Shown here piece after piece: positions 797 to 56,921 of a DNA stretch of 64,000 nucleotides. The DNA is from Tubiluchus corallicola (Eukaryota > Animalia > Priapulida), in the NCBI GenBank assembly GCA_030141605.1, contig JAQGDQ010000011.1:1112066-1176065 (forward strand). Reading direction: 5' to 3'. Positions within the stretch are counted from its first letter, which is position 1; each line of letters starts with the position of its first letter. The notes under the pieces are model-generated. The model did not search any database. It was not told where the DNA came from and saw only the letters and a program-made list of their open reading frames with translations. The translations under genes were made by a program, and so were the position numbers.

Positions 797-25542
<24,746 letters not shown>

Positions 25543-32100: not shown

Positions 32101-35100
32101 AACCCTTAAGCAATTTAGCATTGTAGTGTACACTAATATTAAAGGAAAACTGGATACAATCTTAAACTATAGCTCAAAACAATATACTCTATAAAATATT
32201 GAAAGGAAGCATACTATTTTTTCCAGAATGACTTATGTGAAAGAATTATTACCATAGAAATGAAATTTCGCATTCGTGCTGCTCATTCCATTGCATGCAT
32301 TTCGCCATTCTCTAGTTAGATGGGCACTAGCGCGTCTGTCTCGGAAACGCATTGCACAAAAAACTGGTGCAAGATCTCTCAGTTTAATGGTGTTCGGTTG
32401 TGATGTAATGCAAAGTTCAAAACCTCACGAGTGAGCGCAGTGCTCAGTAAACTCGAAATTTAAATTTTTGTTTTTAACATTTGACGTGTTTTTGTATATC
32501 ACACTGAATGTTGTGCTGTAGCACTGTACATCAATTTAAACTTTTGCAAACATGTACATTGTGCTCATGGAATTTTATGCTGTTGAAAATTATTTTCACT
32601 TGTGATGTCATCAATAGTTGGGCTTGCCTCCAGTTAATTAAGTTTGTAACATATTATTTAATTATGAAAAACACTTTGGCATTACTATGGATGTTAAAAT
32701 GTATACTTTTTACTGTTCTTTAAAATTGGGTAGGATATGAAAAATTATATCATTTTCCTTTAACTAATAATCCTCCTACTTTCAAAATGCTGAACTAGCA
32801 GCAATATCATAGGCCATATTCTTGTGTATAAACGTATTTTAATAAGAGCTATAACATGAGGTCATATGCCAGATAAAACTTGTCAGACGTGATATTCTTG
32901 CCTGACACCCTCCAGTTTACTTACCAGGGCCAGTGTTGCTCAACTTCCACGATAGGCACACAACCGTGACCACTCATCTTTCTTCCTTCACTTTTAAAGA
33001 GCGTTTGTGACATTTCAGGGTGTGTGTGGTGAACACACGGCTGAGAAAATGAAGATAACACGTGAAGAGCAGGACGATTTTGCGATCGAAAGTTACAGAA
33101 GGTCCACTGAGGCCTGGAAGAATGGAGTGTTTAAAGATGAGGTTGTTCCTGTTTCTGTGCCAGCTGGAAAGGGCAAACCAGACGAGATCGTTAATGAGGA
33201 TGAAGAATTTAAAAAGTAAATATAAAACTGCATAAAACTTGTAAATTTAAACTACAGCGTTGACCGTTAGGCACAGCCATTTTGAACAAGTTCAGCTGAC
33301 ATTGCATAAAGTTTGAAAAAATAATCAGAATATTCTTAGGACACTCCTTGCTAACCAAGCAAAAATATAAATTAATTTACATTGTCAATAAGATCAGTAA
33401 TATGTTTTTGGTGAATTAGTGTTGCACAGTGGGATGGCAATGCAGTGCCATTTTATATTACTAAGAGTTTTCCCTTACATAAGCTTTTCAAACTGGTAAA
33501 CATAATGCTAAGTAATATCATAATGTATGGAAAGTTCTTTGGTATATAATTTAAAATTCCCTTTTCTTCCCCTTGGATTTTTTTCATAATCGAAAGGCAT
33601 GGTAATCGTACGGCACACCTAATTATGGTATATTAATTAACCAGTATTACTGTAGCTGTAGCTGTAGCTGTAGCTGTGTTGCTACTGTTGCTGTAACTGT
33701 GTTGCTACTGTAGCTGTAGTTGTTGCTGAAGCTGTGTTGTTGCCGTTGCTGTACCTGTGTTGTTGCTGCTGCTGTAACTGCGTTGCTATATTTGTATTCC
33801 AGTAATTATTGTTGTTGTTATTGAGGAAGAAGATTGTACCATAAAGTTTTGGCTTTACTGCTGTCCTAATATTTATAGCAAACAATTCACCTTTTTCGTG
33901 TTTTTAGGTTTAAACCTGAGAAAGTTAAGACCTTAAGGGCTGTATTCAAGAAAGAAGGAGGAACTGTAACAGCCGCAAATGCTAGCAAATTGAATGATGG
34001 TGCCGGTGCCGTTGTAGTAATGACGGCTCAGGCAGCCGCTAGACTCAACGCTAAACCTCTTGCAAGGATACTAGGTTTGTATTTTGCAGCGTTTTCAATT
34101 TTTTTAGATATCGTAGAAATTTTGAGCTTTGCATTTTTTGCATAGTTTTTTCTAAGTCAATTTATACATTCACTCACACAGTGAAAACATGTCACACACG
34201 TTGAAACTGCAGCCTGCAGTCATCATCAGTGATAGATTACACAAACAAACAACCAGTATTATAAGCATAATCTACAGTATAGAAATTTTACTGTACTGTA
34301 TCTCTTCCTTCTATACACGGCTGTTAATTCATTTCATCTTTGGTTTCCTTGTAAACACGTAATTAGTGAATTTCTGTACAGTAGCTTCTCCCTATAAAAC
34401 TGGTTCTTGTTTGTGTAATCTATCACTGAAGATGACTGCAAGGTGCAGTTGAAATGTTTTTCATTGATTGGTGAAATTGTTTACCTTGGTAAGTGCAATT
34501 TGCACGTTGAAAACACACATCTGATCGTAAAGATGCTTTTATTCTATGTACAAGATTCTTATGAAAACGTCTTCTTCCTTATTGAACTTGCCAAAATGAC
34601 TCATTGATCCGTTGATTCAAAATTAGGTTATGTTTTGAGTACCAATTTGAGTACAAAAATACCCAAGATGCCTTAGTTCTGAATTTAAATTTACTTTTTA
34701 AATTTTGGTTTGTGAACTGAATGGTACATCTGGGTGACTTGAAGAATGAGAAAAGGCAATTTTAAAGTATGCCCCAAAAACTTTCCATACAAAGTTATAT
34801 TACGTAGCATTATGGTTACCCGTTTAAAATACTTATATAACTAGGAAAAAATTCTTAGTAATTTAAAATGTTCATGCCACCTGACCATCATGACACCGAC
34901 TCACCTTTCCAGTGTGCTCCAAAAACGTATTTTTAACCTTAATGACAAGATACAGTAATTTATACTTTTGCTTAGTTCATGAAGAGTGTGCCAATGATTA
35001 ATGTGCAATTTAAATTTAAATTTAAGAGTTTTATACAGCTTTATTGTTAATGCCAGTCCTGTATGCAATGACAGCATGTAAGTCATACAAGATTTCTACA

Positions 35101-38100
35101 GCTACAGCTACAGTAATACTGGTTAATTAATATACCATCATTAGGTGTGCCGTACGATTACCATGCCTTTCGATTACGAAAAAAATCCAATGGGAAGAAA
35201 AGGGAATTTTAAATTATATCCCAAAGAACTTTCCATACATTGTGATATTACTTAGCATTATGCTTACCAGTTTGAAAAGCTTATGTAAGTGAAAACTCTT
35301 AATAATCTAAAATGGCACTGCATCGCCATCGCACTGGACACCACTGATTCACCAAAAACACATTACTGATCTTATTGACAATGTAAATTTGTATTTATAT
35401 TTAAACATTTATATTTTTGCTTAGTTAGCAAGGAGTGTTCTAAGAATGTTCTGATTATTATTTCAAACTTACCACAAGGTTATCTAAACTTATTTCAAAT
35501 GACTTACCGTCGAAATGACTGCGCCTAACAGTCGTCGCAGCAATTTAAATTTGACAGTTTTATATAGCATTATTGTTAATGCCAGTCCTGTATGCAATGA
35601 CAGCATGTAAGTGATACAAGATTTCTACAGCTACAGCTACAGTAATACTGGTTAATTAATATACCATCATTAGGTGTGCCGTACGATTACCATGCCTTTC
35701 GATTACGAAAAAAATCCAATGGGAAGAAAAGGGAATTTTAAATTATATCCCAAAGAACTTTCCATACATTGTGATATTACTTAGCATTATGCTTACCAGT
35801 TTGAAAAGCTTATGTAAGTGAAAACTCTTAATAATCTAAAATGGCACTGCATCGCCATCGCACTGGACACCACTGATTCACCAAAAACACATTACTGATC
35901 TTATTGACAATGTAAATTTGTATTTATATTTAAACATTTATATTTTTGCTTAGTTAGCAAGGAGTGTTCTAAGAATGTTCTGATTATTATTTCAAACTTA
36001 CCACAAGGTTATCTAAACTTATTTCAAATGACTTACCGTCGAAATGACTGCGCCTAACGGTCGTCGCAGCAATTTAAATTTGACAGTTTTATATAGCATT
36101 ATTGTTAATGCCAGTCCTGTATGCAATGACAGCACGTAAGTGATACAAGATTTCAAGATGAATTATTTTAGCTTTATTTATGAACAGTGTTTTTGTTTTC
36201 AAGTGCTTTAACTGTGTTTTTTTCATTTTTAATTTCGCCAGATGTTGAAAAAGTGTGACGAATAAGTTTTTCTCAGTTATAGCAATAACATGACGTCATT
36301 TATTATTGAAAACTAAGAAATCCTGAGTGCTTAATAGTACTTAGCACTATACTGCTGCATTATGTGTTCAAACATGTAACAAATTTTTTAATCTTCAAGT
36401 AATTGTACAAAACAGATAATCCAATAGTAATTTTTATTAGTACTGCATAATACATTGCATTACAGCATAAAACAATGAATTAGTGGTGTCTGAACCATGT
36501 TAAATGAAAAAATTTAATGTACAGAAAGTGATTTACTAGCAGGATCTTGCTTGGGAACTATAAAAAATGAATTAGATAAGGTTCTAGCTGTTAAAACTGT
36601 TAATATTACAATAGCTTGGGCTGCGAGGCATTGTCAAGTGTACACAAATGTGTTGTCTGGTACACTTAACCTTTAACCTTTTTGCGATCATCATCAATCG
36701 CTGCAACTGTGAAAATGCTTATGGGAATCAAATCCTCACCTATACTCAATCTGACATGATGACAATGAAGATGATGGTAATTTTGCATTATCAAATTATT
36801 AATCATGTTACAGGGTGACTTATAGACTGATACAGTTTATTTTGGCTGGGAACAAAGATGGCTTTTTTGGCTTAGGGCTGTCTTGTCTGTATGCTACTGC
36901 CCAACCTTGATGAACATGTAGAGAACCAAGTGGCGCTGCTGAAGCCTCCTCCAGCACTTGCTCAGAGATACAGCAAGGTCCACCTATAAAGTCCATCTTC
37001 AATGCTTGATTATAATATTGCCAAGTGAAAGGAGCTTGTGAAAGCCACAATGGAAAATCATCCATTTCTAATTTATTGAAATGGTTATCTAGGTACTCGT
37101 CCTGCCACATGGATGGTGTATCATTTGGTTCATAATGGTGTGGCATGCCTTCTTCCAAGTGCCGCTCCAGTTTAGGGTACGAAGAAATGTGAGCAAACGG
37201 GTTTCTTTCTTCTTTTTGTATATAAGGAGGAATGTGAGCAAACGGGTTTCTTTCTTCTTTTTGTATATAAGGAAAAAAGACGTTTACCCATCCCGTGACA
37301 TAATTGACCCCACCTGATTCATCTTCTCTGTTATATTTGAAAATCCGAGCCATCCAGTCTTCCAGTGAGGGATCTTTTGGGTTCTGATAACATAGGATCA
37401 ACTTCTTAAGGACTGTCGTTAATCCAGTTTTCCACCACTCCAGATCTGTACCATTGGGCATACCTTGAAACATATTTAATAAATTTTCTGCAGCCTCTTT
37501 TAATTTGATCCAGTCGTTCAACTCTCCCAGTAATGTTACACTTGGTATCCCACACATTGAATACACTTTTAAATCGATGTAAGCCTGTACAACGTCCATC
37601 AAGGAAATGCAGGAAATATCGTTTAGCGTCTCTGTTGTTGTGGTAAATCGTTCACGTATCACTGGCTGTGCACTTTCTTTTAAATTTGCTTCAATAAGTT
37701 GTCTGAATTCTCGAATTACGCCCGGCCAGTTGTTGTCTTGTCCCACCACAAAGTCGTCTCGTCTGACACTTAGTGCGATCTTTCCCTCATGTTTAACAAA
37801 CACGTCACGCAGCTCCTCCGAGTGCTTATTTACATGTATGGTCACGGCCTTTCGAATGTAGTGCCATAACAAGTCCGGTGTGAAGGCAATTGGTTTGTGT
37901 TTAGCAAAACCGATGAAGCACATTTTTATAAGAGGATTTTGAGCTATTGCATACCCACCTTCAGGTATTGGTTTGAATGCTTTGCAATCATAATCCACAT
38001 GCATCTGTTCTATGTCCCTGAGTTTCGGGCTATCGTGGCCGTTAAAAGCACGGAACAGAAGACGGTTGCGGACTTGCGTGTCATCTGTACGCTTGATAAA

Positions 38101-41100
38101 CTTATCGGGAGACACGGGTGATGCTTGTATCGTTACTCCGTTATGCATAATTGCTGTCTTTGGCTTCCAAAGAGTCAAGACGGTGAACAGTGCAGAAAGT
38201 GATCTGAAACATTTCAATTCATAATTAGGATTCACAAACAAGCTGATGTGAAATATTCTTACTTTAAGGACTTACTTTACTTGTTTACCAAGCTTACTTT
38301 TTAACCTTTAGCCGGTCAAGGAGTTTTTATATTATGATAAAGAACAATCGGGGTAACAAATTACCCCATGAAAGTTTTTTTCTTAATAAATGTTACTAAA
38401 TGGATAGAATGACTAACTGGCAATCGAGGTGCTCCTGGTGGTGCAGCAAGTTGGCATAGATATTTGAGGGCACTAAGGATAAAAAGAGACATTCCACCAT
38501 TGCACTATTATCAACTCTTGTGACAATTCTTCTAATAGGTTAATGATGTTTACTATTTAATATTGAGACATCCACTTTGTCTTCACTTGGTTGATCTTCT
38601 AACATTTCATCTTCATCAGCTTTAAGCTTAGCCACCTGTACGGCAAAAGTTCCAGCCATATTACTAAAAGGAAATGTGAAATTTCCTCAACAGATTATTA
38701 GAAAAATCTCTGCAGAGTTGCAGGCTGCAATTAGAGGTTTGCAGCACTTCTCATTTGTCAAGTTGAACATGTGGTGCTATCAAAAAGAAAAGAATTGCTA
38801 TGCAAACTCCAAAATTTTACATATGTAAAAGATCAAGAGATGTAACAAGTTGTTCCACATTAGGTAGCATGTGGCAGCCATGCTTTGTAAAATAGCTGGA
38901 ATAATACTTTTCAACAAAACTAAAGTATAGTTGCATAACAAATTGAAAAATATTTAATCACTACTAGTTTGGAAATTTTCTTTGTATGTATCAATATAAA
39001 AATGTGAGTAAACATCACCGGTGTAATTTTTTAAAGGCTAAAAGCTAAAAACTATTTAAACTCTTAAGTAAAATCCAGTAATTCTAGCTTTTTCTTAATA
39101 CGAAAAATGTTTGAGTATGTTTCGTAAACACTTTCAAATTGTTGTGTGTGTGTGTGTGAAGGAATATAGACATAGTAGAGATGATCACTTTCTTAAATAT
39201 ATTTTTAAATATATATGCTTTCAGCCAGTGATTCCATGTTTGACATCAAACAAAGGATTACGGTTAATTCCCTATTATTACGATAAACATTAAAACAAGT
39301 CAAAATGCCCTTAGGTCTCAAAAATTCTTTATTTTTTAAACAGATTTAGTCCAAGCGCTTCAATGAATATCATTTCTGTACATTAATATTGAGCTGTGAT
39401 ATCATCATTAAAGTAATATTTGAAGAAATGACTTTTGTTTATGTAATGCTTTATTATTAAATTTTCATCAAAATTGGTTTGAAAAGTGGTTTGAAAAGAT
39501 TTGAAAATCAATCGAGAGAGTGCATATAAGTGAAATGAAAGAAGGTGCAAAAGACGAAGAAAAAATAAAGAATTTTTTGAGACCTAAAGTGTATTTTGAC
39601 CTCTTTTGGCATTTGTGACCATGGTGAATATCAGAAGAGTACTGTCTTATTTTCAAGTTATTATTGATATTTGAAGCCCAGTTTCAGCAAGGCATACAAG
39701 TTATAACATTTGTAGTAAACACAGCCCACAAACTTCTCTGCTCGTATTCCCGTTTATTTGAAAATAGGAATTATTTTTCCATGATGTATTGCCTGGCACA
39801 GACCAAGCGAAGACTTCCTCATTTTTCGCGTTTGTTTCCTAAAGTGGATTATTCAATCTGATTTCATTTATACAGCTTCTCAATTGATTTTCAAGTCTCC
39901 CAACCATTTTTCTCTAAAAAGATTTGATAAATATTTAATAATTGCATTTCATTAACAAAAGTCATTTATTCAATTATTACGATATCAGAGCTCAGTATTA
40001 TTGACATTCAGTGAAGCGCTTGAATTAAGTCTGTTTCAGTAACCAAGTTTTCATAAAAGAAGAAGCCTCATTAAGTTTCTATGGACCTCAATTTCTGTGA
40101 CAATGCCGAAAACATGTATAATAATAATAACTTACCAAGTTACTTTAAAATCCCGAACACACAAGCGAGCTTCTCTATGTTTGAATACTGGTCTTACAAC
40201 ATAGCGGGCTCACTTTTATATATAGCTAATGTTTGGCTACATTCAAAGTCTAGTTCCTGTTTATTTAGTGACCATTGTGCTAAATATAGGGCCAAATCCT
40301 GGTTGTGAACATCTGGGGAATTCCAAACAAGTGCCACATATATTAAATTGATTATGATTCTGTTAGTGGGTGCAGTCAAGTGCTGAATATACAATGTGAA
40401 TATATAATGTTATTAAGGTTATAACTGAATCATGCTTGCTAATACTGCCATATATCACACTTGGTGCTAAAAATTATTCAGCCTTGTACTAGTTTTCAAC
40501 ACTGCCTGTCAAAATAACTCAAAACATTTTATTATATAGTTTTTTCTGTTGCTCAGTTCTCAGGCCTATGCTGTAGGCCTAAGATAATATCCACCATTTA
40601 TACTGAAAGAGCAATAATTTTACATTTCCAAAAAAATATGGCAAAGAAATTGTTTTACAAAGTGCTCTAGTAATACAATTATTTCATCACGTGGTTTTTT
40701 CGAATACAATTATTTCATCACGTGGTTTTTATGGATACAATTATTTTATGATGTGGTTTTTGTGAATGTAATTAATTCATCACCTGGTTTTTGTGAATAC
40801 AATTATTTCATTACGTGGTTTTTATGAATACTATTATTTCATCATGTTGTTTTTATGAATACTACTATTTCATCATGTGGTTTTTATGAATATAATTATT
40901 TCGTCAAGTAGTTTTAATGAATACAATTATTTCATCAAGTTGCATTTATGAATACAATTATTTCATCAAGTTATTTTTATGAATACAATTATTTCATCAA
41001 GTTTTTTTTTAGGAATACAATTATTTCATCAACTTGTTTTTATGAATACAATTATTTCATCAAGTGGTTTTTGTGATTAGCTGGCGGCAGAATTTCTACA

Positions 41101-43985
41101 AATAACTAGAACAAATAACATGTAGTTTGATATGTCGAAGCTTTCATATAACTGTACATTGCTATTCTTCTACTACTTCTGACCCTGGCATTAAAGGAAA
41201 GATCAAGTCTTTTAGCACATTGGGTTTATTTTACTACTATTACTTAAACTTAGAAAAATATAACAATGAAATTTGCAAAAAAATGTCTATAAAGTATAAA
41301 GCTAATTTACACTACCACTGTGTAGAAATTTTCTGGTGCAGTGGTAGCTGTCATTCACTTGAAAATTATGATGTAACTGGAAGACTTTGTGACTTCTTGT
41401 AAGCACATCATGGCTTTCTGTAAGTGCGCGCTGCTTAAACTAATTCAAAATCTGCACCTCACTTAATGTTCATGCCAAAATATCACACAAAATTATTTAT
41501 CTAAGTTTTTGTAAAAACTTATTATACTTTTGACAGAAATTGACAGTGTACTGCTTTTCTTCATTGGTGGAAGAATGGGCGTTCAAAATGAAAGTGCTCA
41601 AGCATGAAATGATCGCGACATTAAAATGATTTTACTGGTATCACGAGGCACTTATCACACTTTTATTACTAAATCCTTCTAACATTTTTTGCAAACATTG
41701 TATTAAACTTAACTTCCAGAAAGGCTTAACCTTTCCTTTAAATAGACCTTGACCTGCAGAGTGCAAAATTATTTTAAAAATGTTTGATTTTATAGGGTTT
41801 GCAGACGCGGCTCTAGATCCAATAGACTTTCCGATCGCACCAGCTCATGCAATGCCCAAGGTATTAGAGTACACGGGCGTGAAGAAAGAAGACGTTGACA
41901 TGTGGGAGATAAATGAAGCATTCAGTGTGGTCGTTATTGCAAATCAAAGGTTAATGGATATTGACCCAGCAAAAATTAACATCAATGGTGGTGCTGTTAG
42001 TCTAGGACATCCAATTGGGTAAGCTAGAGTCTCCTGCAATGCATGGATTATGAATTTAGTCTATACTAAACAGTTTTGTACTTGCTGGCCTGCCTATAAA
42101 ACAGGATTATATTATATAATATTTCAGCTTTTCAATAGGGATCCAGCCCTTGAAAAAATGGCCACTAGGTGGCAACATATGACTGTTGCTATACAGTTTG
42201 TCTTATGTAATATAAAGGAGGGACTTGCCATGGGAAATTCATAACTTTGAAATTCAAGATGGCTGCCGACTATTCAAGCGTCTATGTACTTGCCTCCAGT
42301 TAAGTGGAATTAATCATTCAGGTACAAAGGAAAGTGGGGTTATAGCATCAGTTAGTTTCCATAAATGAGTGAAGCTTAGTGAAGGTTGTTGGTTAAACTG
42401 TATAATCCTATTCTACCAGCCAGCCAAACCTCGCAAAGGAACTTGTATATGCAGTATCAAATGCTGTCAAAAACTCAACATTATACAATTATAACTTTCT
42501 CTGTAACACAATAGAAGGTGATGACACAGTGGGTGATGACAGTGCCTGGAACAGCCAGATAATTTCTAAAAGCCAAAGGAAATGAGTGTTCCAAACAGCA
42601 CAAAGTTCTGGGAAGAGGGCTGAAAAAGAACTTCGAAATATGCCATTCCCATTTCATTCAGTTGACATGTTAAATGAAACATTCCCACCTTATAAACCTT
42701 CCCTTTCTCCTTTTAAGGCTGTATTGTGTAAAATTCAGGTGGATGAGTTCCGGAAAAGCCATTTGCTGGAAGCCATGGTTGAAGCCATAAATTGTGCACA
42801 TTTTTGCATCCCTGAGTCCCACTTTTTCAGCATGATGGGATAAAGTTTTCTCAGAATCACCCTGAGATTGATTTACGTACTGCACCAGAATGCCTCTTCT
42901 ATGCATTGGTCTAGGAAAGTTGCTCATAATACGAAACAGTCGTTAAGCATTCAGCTCCAATATTAAGACATGCAAAGATTATGAAAGATACAGAATACTA
43001 CAGGTTTTCACCATAATAGAGAATAACGCCACTGTTTCTCCCAAAATTATCAATCTGCTAAGCCACATGACATCCTACACACACCTTTAAGTAACAACAT
43101 TAGCTTTTTTCTAGACCGTACTAGTGTACGTAGTAACTAAGTCAGTTACGATGATCTCTGACTAGGCAATTTTGTTGTATTTTGAAAACTTTTGTTAATT
43201 ACTTATGTCAGATTAGTAATTAATAATTAACAGTCATTAAACTCTAGAAGAATTTTACTCCCGCTTACGCTTGCACCCGGAAACTCTGTCGCCTCCTTCG
43301 CTACGCTCTGTGGGTCTCCCCCAAAATGTAACTATGTCTACTGCACCCATTGAACAGGCTATCCAGCCATTATTGGCACAAGACACGGTGCCTTCCTAAC
43401 TTCTTAAACTAAGGACTACAAGTTTTGAGAAAAAACGGGCCATGAAATGGCAATATTTGAAGGTTTTCACTTCCCGCTTTTCCCAGTAGCCCTGATTAAA
43501 AAAATAAACCATCAATAGAACTATACTAGATTGAAACTTTTCATTTGTTATATAAATTGCCCAAAATGATACAGTTGTTGAAACTGTCACTGTGGTAGTT
43601 ACATGTACTCAGCAAATGATGATGTAGGGTAGTGTTTGGGGGACTTGAGCAAAGGGATGAACTTGCCTCGCTTATTAGTTGGTAGTTGGTTTATGGGACT
43701 TGTTAGGTAGCACTAACAAGTACTATAACTACACATCTGAATGATTAATTTCACTCAATTAGAAGCAAGAATATAGAAGCTTGAACTGTCGTCAGCCATC
43801 TTGAATTTTGAACTTACAATTGCAGTCTACCCATCCTATGCTCTAAAATGTTATATCCACTTGTAGTATAAAAATTAACACGAATTTCTCATGGGACAAG
43901 AAAATGCTGCATAAGCCACTACACTAATAATTACTATTTAGTGGACTTTGGATTTTGGTGGTTGTCAGCCAACATCTAAAAGCAT

Positions 43986-55106: not shown

Positions 55107-56921
55107 ATGTCGCCCGCAAGCGTCGTGCGACTGCACGTGCTTTTGTTGTGGTTTTTACTTCTGTGTCACAAACTTTGCCACGGATTAGATTCCAGTAAGA
55201 AAAGCCAGTGTGAGCGAATAACTATACCTATGTGTCAGGATATGCCATACAACATGACTAGAATGCCTAATCTCATGGGACACGTTAGTCAAGCTGAGGC
55301 AGCCATTCAAGTGCACGAATTTGTCACACTCGTAGAAGTTGGCTGTTCTAAACATCTGAAGTTTTTTCTGTGCTCCCTGTACGCGCCTATGTGTACGGAA
55401 CAAGTCGACATACCCATACCTGCCTGCAGGTCAATGTGTGAAGAAGTCAAAAACTTATGTCTTCCGGTGCTGGAAAAGTTCCGTTTTCCTTGGCCGGATT
55501 CGCTAAAGTGTTCCCGTCTTCCTGAAAAGAATGGTTTGTGCATGGAAATCCCGGACGCTTCTCGGGAGCCCAGTAATCGGGCAGATAGAGATAACTTCGA
55601 TATTGACCACATCGACAGGGTACTAAAACCTGGTGACTCTGGCGTTTTTTCTGTTTATAATCAAATGTTCAATTCGAAACAGCCGAGTTCCACCACTAGT
55701 CAACCGGCTCCAAAGTGTAAATCAGAAAAATTTGTTTATGTAAAACAGTTAGAACACCGTGAAGATACTCTAGGTGCTTGTGCTCCCATGTGCAGACTTC
55801 CACCGTCGGAGGGGGAACGTCCTATTAGCGTGTTCTTTCGGACGAATGATAAGAACTTTGCGCAGGTCTGGATGGCGGTGTGGGCCTCCGTTTGTTTCGT
55901 GTCCACTGCGTTTACTGTGCTGACATTTTGGATTGATATGGGACGGTTTAAATACCCCGAACGACCTATCTATTTCTTAGCTATGTGTTTTAACATCTAT
56001 TCTATTGCTTACCTAATACGTGTTATTGCGGGAGCAGACGCCATATCTTGTGACTCCACATACGTCAATAAAGAACCTGTCAGATTTCTCATTCGCGAGG
56101 GATTACAGAGCACGGGCTGTATCATTGTCTTTTTAATCCTCTATTTCTTCGGCATGGCGAGTTCAATATGGTGGGTCGTTTTGACATTGACTTGGTACCT
56201 AGCCGCCGGAAGAAAGTGGGGTCACGAAGCTATTGAGGCCCTCAGTTCCTACTTCCACCTAGCGGCTTGGGGCGTTCCTGCCGTTAAAACCATGGTGATC
56301 TTAATCATGAGACAAGTGGACGCTGATGAGTTTACGGGTATGTGTTACACAGGAAATCTGGACCCTCGGGCATTGTTGGGGTTCGTGATTGCCCCACTCT
56401 GCGTTTATCTAATCATTGGTATCGTGTTTATCTGCTACGGATTTGGTGCGCTGTTTAGAATTCGGAAAGCCATGAAACGGGACGGTAGCAATATCGACAA
56501 ACTCGAGAAACTCATGGTTAAAATCGGAATATTTTCCGTCACCTACTTAGTACCAGCCGCTTGTGTGCTAGCTTGTTACGTTTATCAATATTACAGACTG
56601 GACGATTGGATACGCCTGGCGATGAATTCAGACTGTACCAGCGATGACTGTAGTGACAATCTTAATTTTAGTATACCTTATACGTCTGTATTTCTCATGA
56701 AAATTTGCATGTCTTTGATAGTGGGCATATCTAGTGGAATGTGGGTGTGGACCAGCAAGACTTGGCACTCCTGGTACAACTTCTGTAGCCATCCCTGGCG
56801 GCGGTCGCACAGAAGGAAGATAAAAATGGCCTATCAACATCATCAAGTGCCTATTATGCAGCTGACCACTTACAGGGGTGAGAAATATTACGCTCCTCAT
56901 CAGACGTGTTCCAGAGTATGA
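55107..56921 (+). CDS. FZD9/10: Frizzled-9/10 family Wnt receptor, intronless, 604 aa
   Basis: Signal peptide; cysteine-rich domain CERITIPMCQDMPYNMTRMPNLMGH..EAAIQVHEF..FFLCSLYAPMCTEQV..PIPACR (FZD9/10 type); seven TM segments; RFKYPERPI; KWGHEAIE; KTxxxW motif (KTWHSW); C-terminal PDZ ligand SRV. First ATG is at 55107 (track start 55086 is TTG). Confidence 0.96.
   Translation: MSPASVVRLHVLLLWFLLLCHKLCHGLDSSKKSQCERITIPMCQDMPYNMTRMPNLMGHVSQAEAAIQVHEFVTLVEVGCSKHLKFFLCSLYAPMCTEQVDIPIPACRSMCEEVKNLCLPVLEKFRFPWPDSLKCSRLPEKNGLCMEIPDASREPSNRADRDNFDIDHIDRVLKPGDSGVFSVYNQMFNSKQPSSTTSQPAPKCKSEKFVYVKQLEHREDTLGACAPMCRLPPSEGERPISVFFRTNDKNFAQVWMAVWASVCFVSTAFTVLTFWIDMGRFKYPERPIYFLAMCFNIYSIAYLIRVIAGADAISCDSTYVNKEPVRFLIREGLQSTGCIIVFLILYFFGMASSIWWVVLTLTWYLAAGRKWGHEAIEALSSYFHLAAWGVPAVKTMVILIMRQVDADEFTGMCYTGNLDPRALLGFVIAPLCVYLIIGIVFICYGFGALFRIRKAMKRDGSNIDKLEKLMVKIGIFSVTYLVPAACVLACYVYQYYRLDDWIRLAMNSDCTSDDCSDNLNFSIPYTSVFLMKICMSLIVGISSGMWVWTSKTWHSWYNFCSHPWRRSHRRKIKMAYQHHQVPIMQLTTYRGEKYYAPHQTCSRV

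What the first reader, a model, noticed from the sequence alone, without database searches (positions are those of the whole stretch)
36820..38148. Intronless DUF4419-like gene nested antisense in an ACAT1 intron: candidate domesticated horizontal acquisition
Seen: an intact 442-aa single-exon ORF on the opposite strand inside the 7.7-kb intron 7 of ACAT1, while IFT88 and ACAT1 are finely split into exons. It has a TATA-like box upstream and AATAAA downstream. Knowledge: its motifs match my recollection of DUF4419, a domain of unknown function known mainly from bacteria, fungi, protists and giant viruses, and patchily distributed in animals. Inference: a horizontally acquired or retroposed gene kept under selection. 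Embedding in a host intron argues against a contaminant contig.
Basis: partly seen in the sequence, partly recalled or inferred. Interest (0 to 1): 0.85.

Follow-up and report, generated by a model that had tools for sequence, protein, structure and literature searches.

The report
Microbial-type DUF4419 gene family in priapulids
An intact, intron-free gene for a microbial-type protein of unknown function sits backwards inside an intron of a metabolic gene in what is likely a priapulid worm; it is likely a later duplicate in a small gene family shared with an annelid, so probably an ancient acquisition rather than a fresh transfer, and it is predicted to encode a cysteine-dependent enzyme.

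Summary
The ORF is real: 442 codons, minus strand, inside the 7,721-bp ACAT1 intron, Pfam DUF4419 at E=3e-60. The host is likely a priapulid. An independent run holds the ORF at 3 differences in 964 nt, so contamination is unlikely.

The 'fresh domesticated transfer' reading is only partly right. The best-matching DNA run holds at least two more diverged copies. The protein falls in a 100/97 clade with an Owenia (annelid) protein, away from all named bacteria. Hemichordates carry a separate lineage nested among bacteria. So animals hold at least two DUF4419 lineages; this one looks old, its donor is unidentified, and the intronic copy is likely secondary. Missing introns look like a family trait. 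The TATA and AATAAA motifs are at chance level.

No fold match in PDB. A near-invariant Cys199 and His84, and CaaX-like ends in 3 related proteins, suggest a membrane-anchorable thiol enzyme (untested). Selection on this copy may be relaxed. The scan had not noted this family before.

The parts
36820..38148 (-). DUF4419 ORF, 442 aa, no intron in the coding sequence
36946..37938 (-). Pfam DUF4419 (PF14388) match, residues 71-401
   Evidence: E=3.3e-60, 204.5 bits against cut-off 25
37552..37554 (-). Cys199, candidate catalytic thiol
   Evidence: Cys in 258 of 259 aligned family members; role inferred
37897..37899 (-). His84, candidate partner of Cys199
   Evidence: His in 249 of 255 rows with a residue there; segments 81-95 and 199-212 covary; role inferred
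37178..37267 (-). In-frame 45-nt (15-aa) tandem duplication, absent from the homologues that cover it
   Evidence: skipped in the X1 and X5 homologue contigs and in P0001/P0002
36823..36834 (-). C-terminal CISL, a CaaX-like end after a lysine-rich stretch
   Evidence: Cxx-L ends in 3 of 267 family proteins, all in this clade or its sister
34075..41795 (+). ACAT1 host intron, 7,721 bp, GT-AG
33908..34074 (+). ACAT1 exon before the host intron
   Evidence: joined to other exons in an X6 contig
41796..42018 (+). ACAT1 exon after the host intron
   Evidence: joined to the last exon in an X6 contig
38300..38414 (.). High-copy host repeat upstream of the ORF, beginning near a TTAA; it contains the TATA-like motif (38325-38331)
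   Evidence: depth bins, loose ends and X3 records 13-14
36527..36722 (.). Very high-copy host repeat about 100 nt past the stop codon; the AATAAA (36433-36438) lies beyond it
   Evidence: loose ends at 36527 and 36722 and bin depth
38204..38209 (-). Possible splice acceptor (TTTCAG) 55 nt upstream of the ATG
   Evidence: sequence only; untested

Best explanation
This is a host-encoded DUF4419 gene, likely a secondary duplicate within a small priapulid gene family whose ancestor likely entered animals once, at or before the early protostomes, from a still unidentified microbial or viral donor, and it is predicted to encode a cytosolic cysteine-dependent enzyme. Shown: the ORF, the domain, its place in the ACAT1 intron, further copies in the same DNA run, a supported clade with an annelid protein, and a separate hemichordate lineage. 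Inferred: one old entry followed by loss in most animals; duplication in priapulids; landing of one already intron-free copy in the ACAT1 intron, in the antisense direction. Predicted mechanism (about 0.3 on its own): Cys199 acts as a nucleophile beside His84, under a mobile lid, in a hydrolase or transferase reaction. Some members would be geranylgeranylated at a CaaX end and held on membranes. The family's spread (myxobacteria, planctomycetes, jumbo phages, giant viruses, insect DNA viruses; fusions to LRR, FHA, SMI1/KNR4-like domains) points to host-microbe conflict rather than core metabolism.
For: Host origin: the X1 contigs over the ORF have depths 182.8 and 194.4, within the 183-211 of the other seven listed X1 contigs, and one runs from the ORF into the upstream host repeat; X3, from another study, has 3 differences in 964 nt. 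Family: two further X1 contigs are 16% and 20% diverged over the aligned parts. X5 and X6, whose ACAT1 contigs join exons, carry homologue contigs 12% and 19% diverged. Age: the third-best of 4,551 hits with full-length cover is an Owenia fusiformis protein on a 37-Mb record; the tree has (query, P0001, P0002) sister to (Owenia, unnamed ENA group) at 100/97, with four unnamed proteins as sister at 100/97. Two lineages: AU test rejects joining this clade with the two hemichordate proteins, p=0.0017. Constraint: the query keeps 58 of 67 conserved columns, against 60 for P0001 and 57 for P0002; a neutral branch of 5-8% would stay stop-free with probability 0.005-0.06. Mechanism: conservation and covariation; both models are weakest in the segment before the Cys; in a yeast GGTase-I screen CNLL (P0001's end) scored 0.18 and CAIL (P0037's end) 0.066, inside the under-0.2 zone of canonical substrates (PMC11304957).
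Against: Only one member of the clade besides the window is named (Owenia); P0001, P0002, the ENA group and the four sister proteins are unnamed, so 'congruent with the animal tree' rests on a three-tip pattern. No donor is identified, so horizontal entry is not shown for this clade. The AU group was named after I saw the tree, and the test used 39 hand-picked rows of 267. Changes probably on this copy's branch are 11 non-synonymous to 5 synonymous codons (omega about 0.6-0.9, not different from neutral; from a truncated list). It also carries F191I, Y193L and G368W at conserved or homologue-shared sites and a 15-aa duplication. Its own end, CISL, scored 0.66 and 0.76 in the yeast screen, which is ambiguous. 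The direct His84-Cys199 coupling is weak (z 3.3, rank 259). No single contig spans from an ACAT1 exon to the ORF.
Confidence: 0.5

Rival explanations
1. No horizontal transfer into animals for this clade: it was inherited from unicellular eukaryotic ancestors and lost in most animal lineages.
For: The sister group is not bacterial by any label I have; one sister protein (P0037) ends in CAIL, the same end as yeast Cdc42, which suggests a eukaryote. DUF4419 also occurs in amoebae (PMC7125106 passage). The clade is not inside the bacteria-rich group.
Against: It needs very many losses: among the 20 proteins that I looked up by name, only Owenia and two hemichordates were named animals. The coding sequence lacks introns where it could be checked. 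The hemichordate case shows that this family does appear to jump into animals.
Confidence: 0.22
2. Several independent transfers from one unsampled donor group (a marine giant virus, protist or symbiont of sediment worms) into priapulids, Owenia and a third host.
For: Extreme patchiness; many viral carriers; a paper infers bacteria-amoeba-giant virus movement of a DUF4419 gene; no named Priapulus caudatus protein among the 21 and 19 hits.
Against: No named non-animal sequence falls inside the clade; viral scans with the query and the clade alignment gave only 30%-identity loci outside it.
Confidence: 0.2
3. Whatever the family's origin, this intronic copy is a decaying duplicate that is no longer used (can hold together with the other readings).
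For: 11:5 non-synonymous to synonymous codons on its likely branch, substitutions at conserved aromatic and glycine sites, the 15-aa duplication, an ambiguous CaaX end, promoter and poly(A) motifs at chance level.
Against: Frame intact over 442 codons, improbable under neutrality at 5-8% divergence; candidate catalytic residues kept; no protein-level acceleration (26 unique changes against 30 in P0001); intact over the parts covered in a second study's run.
Confidence: 0.25
4. Contaminant or misassembled microbial DNA.
For: No record spans exon to ORF.
Against: Host-like depth, linkage to a host repeat, near-identity in an independent study, several paralogues; GC3 0.405 against 0.404 for ACAT1.
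Confidence: 0.02

Closest known systems
Pfam DUF4419 (PF14388)
   Same: Full domain match above the curated cut-off; all near-invariant polar residues kept.
   Different: Belongs to a distinct subclade with a GGPCC motif and an insertion in the last hairpin, CaaX-like ends in some members, and animal hosts; no paper on it was found.
Owenia fusiformis CAH1798963.1 (UniProt A0A8J1TCZ0)
   Same: Nearest named relative, 40% identity over nearly the full length, same clade.
   Different: No CaaX end; long branch; its gene structure and locus were not checked.
Hemichordate DUF4419 proteins (Glandiceps XP_077992473.1; Ptychodera XP_070532206.1)
   Same: Animal-encoded DUF4419.
   Different: Separate lineage nested among bacterial and phage sequences; joining them to this clade is rejected.
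Viral DUF4419 proteins: LbFV ORF1, entomopoxvirus W6JIV0, Yasminevirus, Fadolivirus, Pithovirus, Marseillevirus, Tupanvirus, Catovirus
   Same: Same predicted fold: 13 BFVD matches at E<=0.001; LbFV ORF1 is listed as DUF4419.
   Different: 14-21% identity; their labels ('inhibitor of apoptosis', 'eEF-3 like') are database names with no test that I could find.
Old microbial-type genes in marine invertebrates (msp130; the hemichordate 'deuterostome plus marine microbe' genes)
   Same: Patchy animal distribution with microbial relatives, explained by ancient transfer or repeated loss (PMC11878542 abstract; PMC4729200 passages).
   Different: Those have known or proposed functions and shared intron positions; this one has neither.

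Membership tests
DUF4419 (PF14388) | Score above the Pfam gathering cut-off over the domain | tested here: met
   204.5 bits against 25; profile positions 1-292 of 303
DUF4419 (PF14388) | Conserved core residues (H84, D92, H105, R114, T170, C199, D212) | tested here: met
   All present; F191 and Y193 of the YFxY motif are changed
Horizontally acquired animal gene | Sits in host DNA among animal genes | tested here: met
   ACAT1 intron, Frizzled nearby, host-like depth, second study
Horizontally acquired animal gene | Nested within a named non-animal donor clade | tested here: inconclusive
   Sister group of four unnamed proteins; not inside the named-bacteria group
Recent, lineage-specific transfer | No member of the same clade in other animal phyla | tested here: not met
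   Owenia fusiformis protein in the same 100/97 clade
Retrocopy | Intron-bearing parent gene whose introns are lost in the copy | tested here: inconclusive
   DNA paralogue contigs align without introns over the parts laid; whole parent loci not available
Retrocopy | Poly(A) remnant and target-site duplication | not tested
   None obvious by eye; flanks are repeats
Domesticated (functional) gene | Purifying selection on this copy | tested here: inconclusive
   Intact frame unlikely under neutrality, but 11:5 codon ratio not different from neutral
Domesticated (functional) gene | Transcription of this copy | not testable with these tools
   Only contigs of homologues in exon-joining runs of related animals
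CaaX-prenylated protein | C-terminal CaaX accepted by a prenyltransferase | tested here: inconclusive
   CISL ambiguous in a published yeast screen; relatives' CNLL and CAIL score like canonical substrates
Cys-His thiol enzyme | Cys and His adjacent in the fold, or a fold shared with a known thiol enzyme | tested here: inconclusive
   Neighbouring segments covary; model coordinates could not be read; best PDB Z 4.5 and 4.0

The most novel reading that the evidence does not exclude
DUF4419 is an undescribed family of cysteine enzymes with a fold not yet in the PDB, used in microbial and viral conflict, which animals captured at least twice; one capture, in early protostomes, became a lipid-anchored defence enzyme that expanded in priapulids and other marine invertebrates.
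Probability: 0.15. Interest if true: 0.72.

Novelty: new member of a known kind. Interest (0 to 1): 0.42.

Why it matters
It records an animal subfamily of an uncharacterised domain that I could not find in print, and it shows two separate animal lineages of that domain. That makes it a usable case for the long-running question of ancient transfer versus repeated loss in animals. It also gives testable handles on DUF4419 itself: a candidate Cys-His pair and a prenylation signal. The nested, antisense position is ordinary and says little about origin.

Tried and rejected
No whole genome is held for the window, so paralogues were seen only as run contigs. No RNA holder was listed for this stretch; this says nothing about expression. 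PDB sequence searches: 0 hits for the protein, 3 hits at E 0.27-0.51 for the profile, rejected. Fold searches: no Foldseek PDB match at E<=0.001 for either model; VIA best Z 4.5 (rmsd 4.7, 133 aligned) and 4.0 (rmsd 4.4, 104 aligned), generic helical bundles; absence does not show a new fold. ESM Atlas: nothing usable (the second model had pTM 0.26). NCBIfam: no match above cut-off for 7 proteins. Gene neighbourhoods of 94 bacterial and viral loci: no partner conserved across phyla; the large clusters were antisense ORFs of the gene itself or came from close relatives. Phage and plasmid records: 3 and 1 hits, no informative annotation. The 'apoptosis inhibitor' and 'eEF-3 like' labels of entomopoxvirus homologues were followed up without finding support; the ACEV genome paper itself was not read. 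The TATA box and AATAAA were rejected as evidence. No complex prediction was run.
Full report
Observation. The 442-codon ORF is at 36820-38148 on the minus strand, far beyond the 186-codon maximum in 300 shuffles of the intron. Seven plus-strand exons with AG/GT ends give an open thiolase-like frame, and the ORF lies in the 7,721-bp intron 34075-41795. Pfam gives DUF4419 over residues 71-401 at E=3.3e-60. The TATA-like and AATAAA motifs are present but occur in 22.5% and 45% of comparable stretches of the window, and the TATA motif lies in a high-copy repeat. A 45-nt in-frame tandem duplication sits at 37178-37267.

Host. The intronless Frizzled at 55107-56921 is 73% identical to Priapulus caudatus and 72% to an unnamed Logan protein; the next of 352 hits is 57%. 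The host is therefore likely a priapulid other than P. caudatus.

Host DNA, not contamination. Four of six listed runs hold the ORF or part of it, from two studies. I laid X1, X3, X5 and X6. In X1, which may be the source of the window and so is not independent, the ORF contigs have depths 182.8 and 194.4, like the other listed unique contigs (183-211), and one continues into the upstream repeat. The tool warns that depth is no copy number. X3, from another study, has a 964-nt contig with 3 differences. GC3 equals that of ACAT1. No record spans exon to ORF.

A small family. X1 also holds a contig 16% diverged that lacks the 45-nt duplication and another 20% diverged; neither shows an intron over the parts that align. 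X5 and X6 have ACAT1 contigs that join exons, so they behave like transcript assemblies, and their ACAT1 exons differ by about 7.6%, so they are likely related species. They hold DUF4419 contigs 12% and 19% diverged from the ORF. The family is thus likely transcribed in relatives; this copy's expression is not shown.

Relatives. The word-indexed search gave 21 hits among 6,664 candidates, led by unnamed Logan proteins at 70% and 61% and an unnamed ENA group at 37-43%; two of that group lie on contigs of the same length, 37.9 kb, which suggests a tandem array. The exhaustive search gave 4,551 hits, 150 listed. I looked up 30 proteins by name in three calls; three were named animals: Owenia fusiformis (P0027), Glandiceps talaboti (P0031) and Ptychodera flava (P0052); the rest were unnamed or 'hypothetical'. 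In GTDB one motif found 309 confirmed places, of which 79 loci were returned, mainly Myxococcota, Planctomycetota, Melainabacteria, Bacteroidota and Cyanobacteria. Fifteen viral loci lay on contigs of 74-529 kb.

Trees. A FastTree of 187 rows (one short row dropped), a quick IQ-TREE of 81 rows and a careful one of 39 hand-picked rows agree. The query groups with P0001 and P0002 (100/99); these are sister to Owenia plus the ENA group (99/92); the whole clade has 100/97; four unnamed proteins are its sister (100/97). The hemichordate pair lies in a group of named bacteria and phages (84/92, weaker). Forcing the two animal sets together is rejected (p-AU 0.0017), with the caveat that I named the group after seeing the tree. 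So animals have at least two DUF4419 lineages. The window's lineage crosses Ecdysozoa and Spiralia and has no named donor. The simplest reading is one old entry and many losses, but vertical descent from protists and repeated transfer from an unsampled donor both remain open. The same ambiguity is stated for hemichordate genes in PMC4729200 (passages) and for ACY3/ASPA in PMC6006793 (abstract); msp130 is a parallel (PMC11878542, abstract).

Selection on this copy. It keeps 58 of 67 conserved columns (P0001 60, P0002 57) and has 26 unique changes against 30 in P0001. A neutral branch of 5-8% would avoid stops with probability 0.005-0.06 (the branch length is a rough estimate). Against this, differences shared by two homologues, and so likely derived here, are 11 non-synonymous to 5 synonymous codons (omega 0.6-0.9, not significant), whereas the X6-type paralogue comparison gives 8 to 9 (omega 0.25-0.35, p 0.005-0.03). 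These counts use only the 40 of 251 differences that displayed. Relaxed constraint is possible.

Mechanism. AlphaFold models reached pLDDT 72 for the query and 82 for a compact relative, P0041; both are weakest in the segment leading up to the conserved Cys. Neither matched a solved fold; 13 viral DUF4419-type models matched. In 259 aligned members Cys199 is kept in 258, Asp212 in 257, Arg114 in 256, His84 in 249 of 255. Covariation links the segment around His84 to the one around Cys199 (F81-I201 z 7.0; L93-L207, F89-L206, A88-L207 weaker; H84-C199 z 3.3). I infer a Cys-His site and a thiol-dependent hydrolase or transferase; this is a prediction. Three of 267 proteins end in Cxx-L: the query (CISL), P0001 (CNLL) and sister P0037 (CAIL), all within the 22-member clade plus sister (the query and P0001 are not independent). 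In PMC11304957 (passages and supplement rows) CNLL and CAIL score like canonical geranylgeranylation substrates at 37 C (0.18, 0.066) and CISL is ambiguous (0.66). Microbial members carry add-on domains: LRR-type hits in 6 and FHA in 1 of 30 long proteins, SMI1/KNR4 hits in 5 of 26 long bacterial or viral ORFs, only one above the curated cut-off. From general knowledge these domains are common in conflict and immunity systems; that is a lead only.

Literature. 'DUF4419' occurs in 2 papers of the library and 'PF14388' in 1: LbFV ORF1 (PMC5381508, passages) and a Vermamoeba gene thought to have moved between bacteria, amoeba and giant viruses (PMC7125106, passage). Searches on priapulid or Owenia with horizontal transfer, entomopoxvirus apoptosis inhibitors (PMC11253681 term search) and nested genes showed nothing on this family in their listings. 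Subscription papers and most supplements were not searched, and gene lists there may name it. Earlier scan notes hold nothing on DUF4419.

Verdict. Real, host-encoded, and a new member of a known kind: an old microbial-type gene with patchy retention in marine invertebrates. The intronic position marks a later duplicate, not the transfer. Interest is moderate, carried by the two separate animal lineages and the testable Cys-His and CaaX leads.

Noticed in passing
window 35013-36154 and 33217-33667: Three 529-bp tandem units in the same ACAT1 intron, with a 93% inverted copy in the previous intron that runs up to that intron's 5' end.
   Followed up: no
window 40610-41074: Minisatellite with a 31-bp period in the host intron.
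   Followed up: no
window 55107-56921: Intronless Frizzled 9/10 gene; used to place the host among priapulids.
   Followed up: yes
P0052 (Ptychodera flava XP_070532206.1): Hemichordate DUF4419 annotated in some isoforms with an N-terminal signal-like stretch and pleiotrophin/midkine domains; a real fusion or an annotation read-through.
   Followed up: partly
L103:1840-4116 (P0026): Tandem double DUF4419 on a 435-kb viral contig, hinting at a dimer.
   Followed up: no
L004:1-1161: Intron-free member of the ENA-type subgroup with one in-frame stop, followed by non-coding, repeat-like DNA; host unknown.
   Followed up: partly
L050, L051, L076, L093, L097: Bacterial DUF4419 fused to a C-terminal SMI1/KNR4-like domain, mostly below the Pfam cut-off.
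   Followed up: partly
window 14346-14726: Minus-strand ORF whose first part resembles IFT88 by recall; not tested.
   Followed up: no
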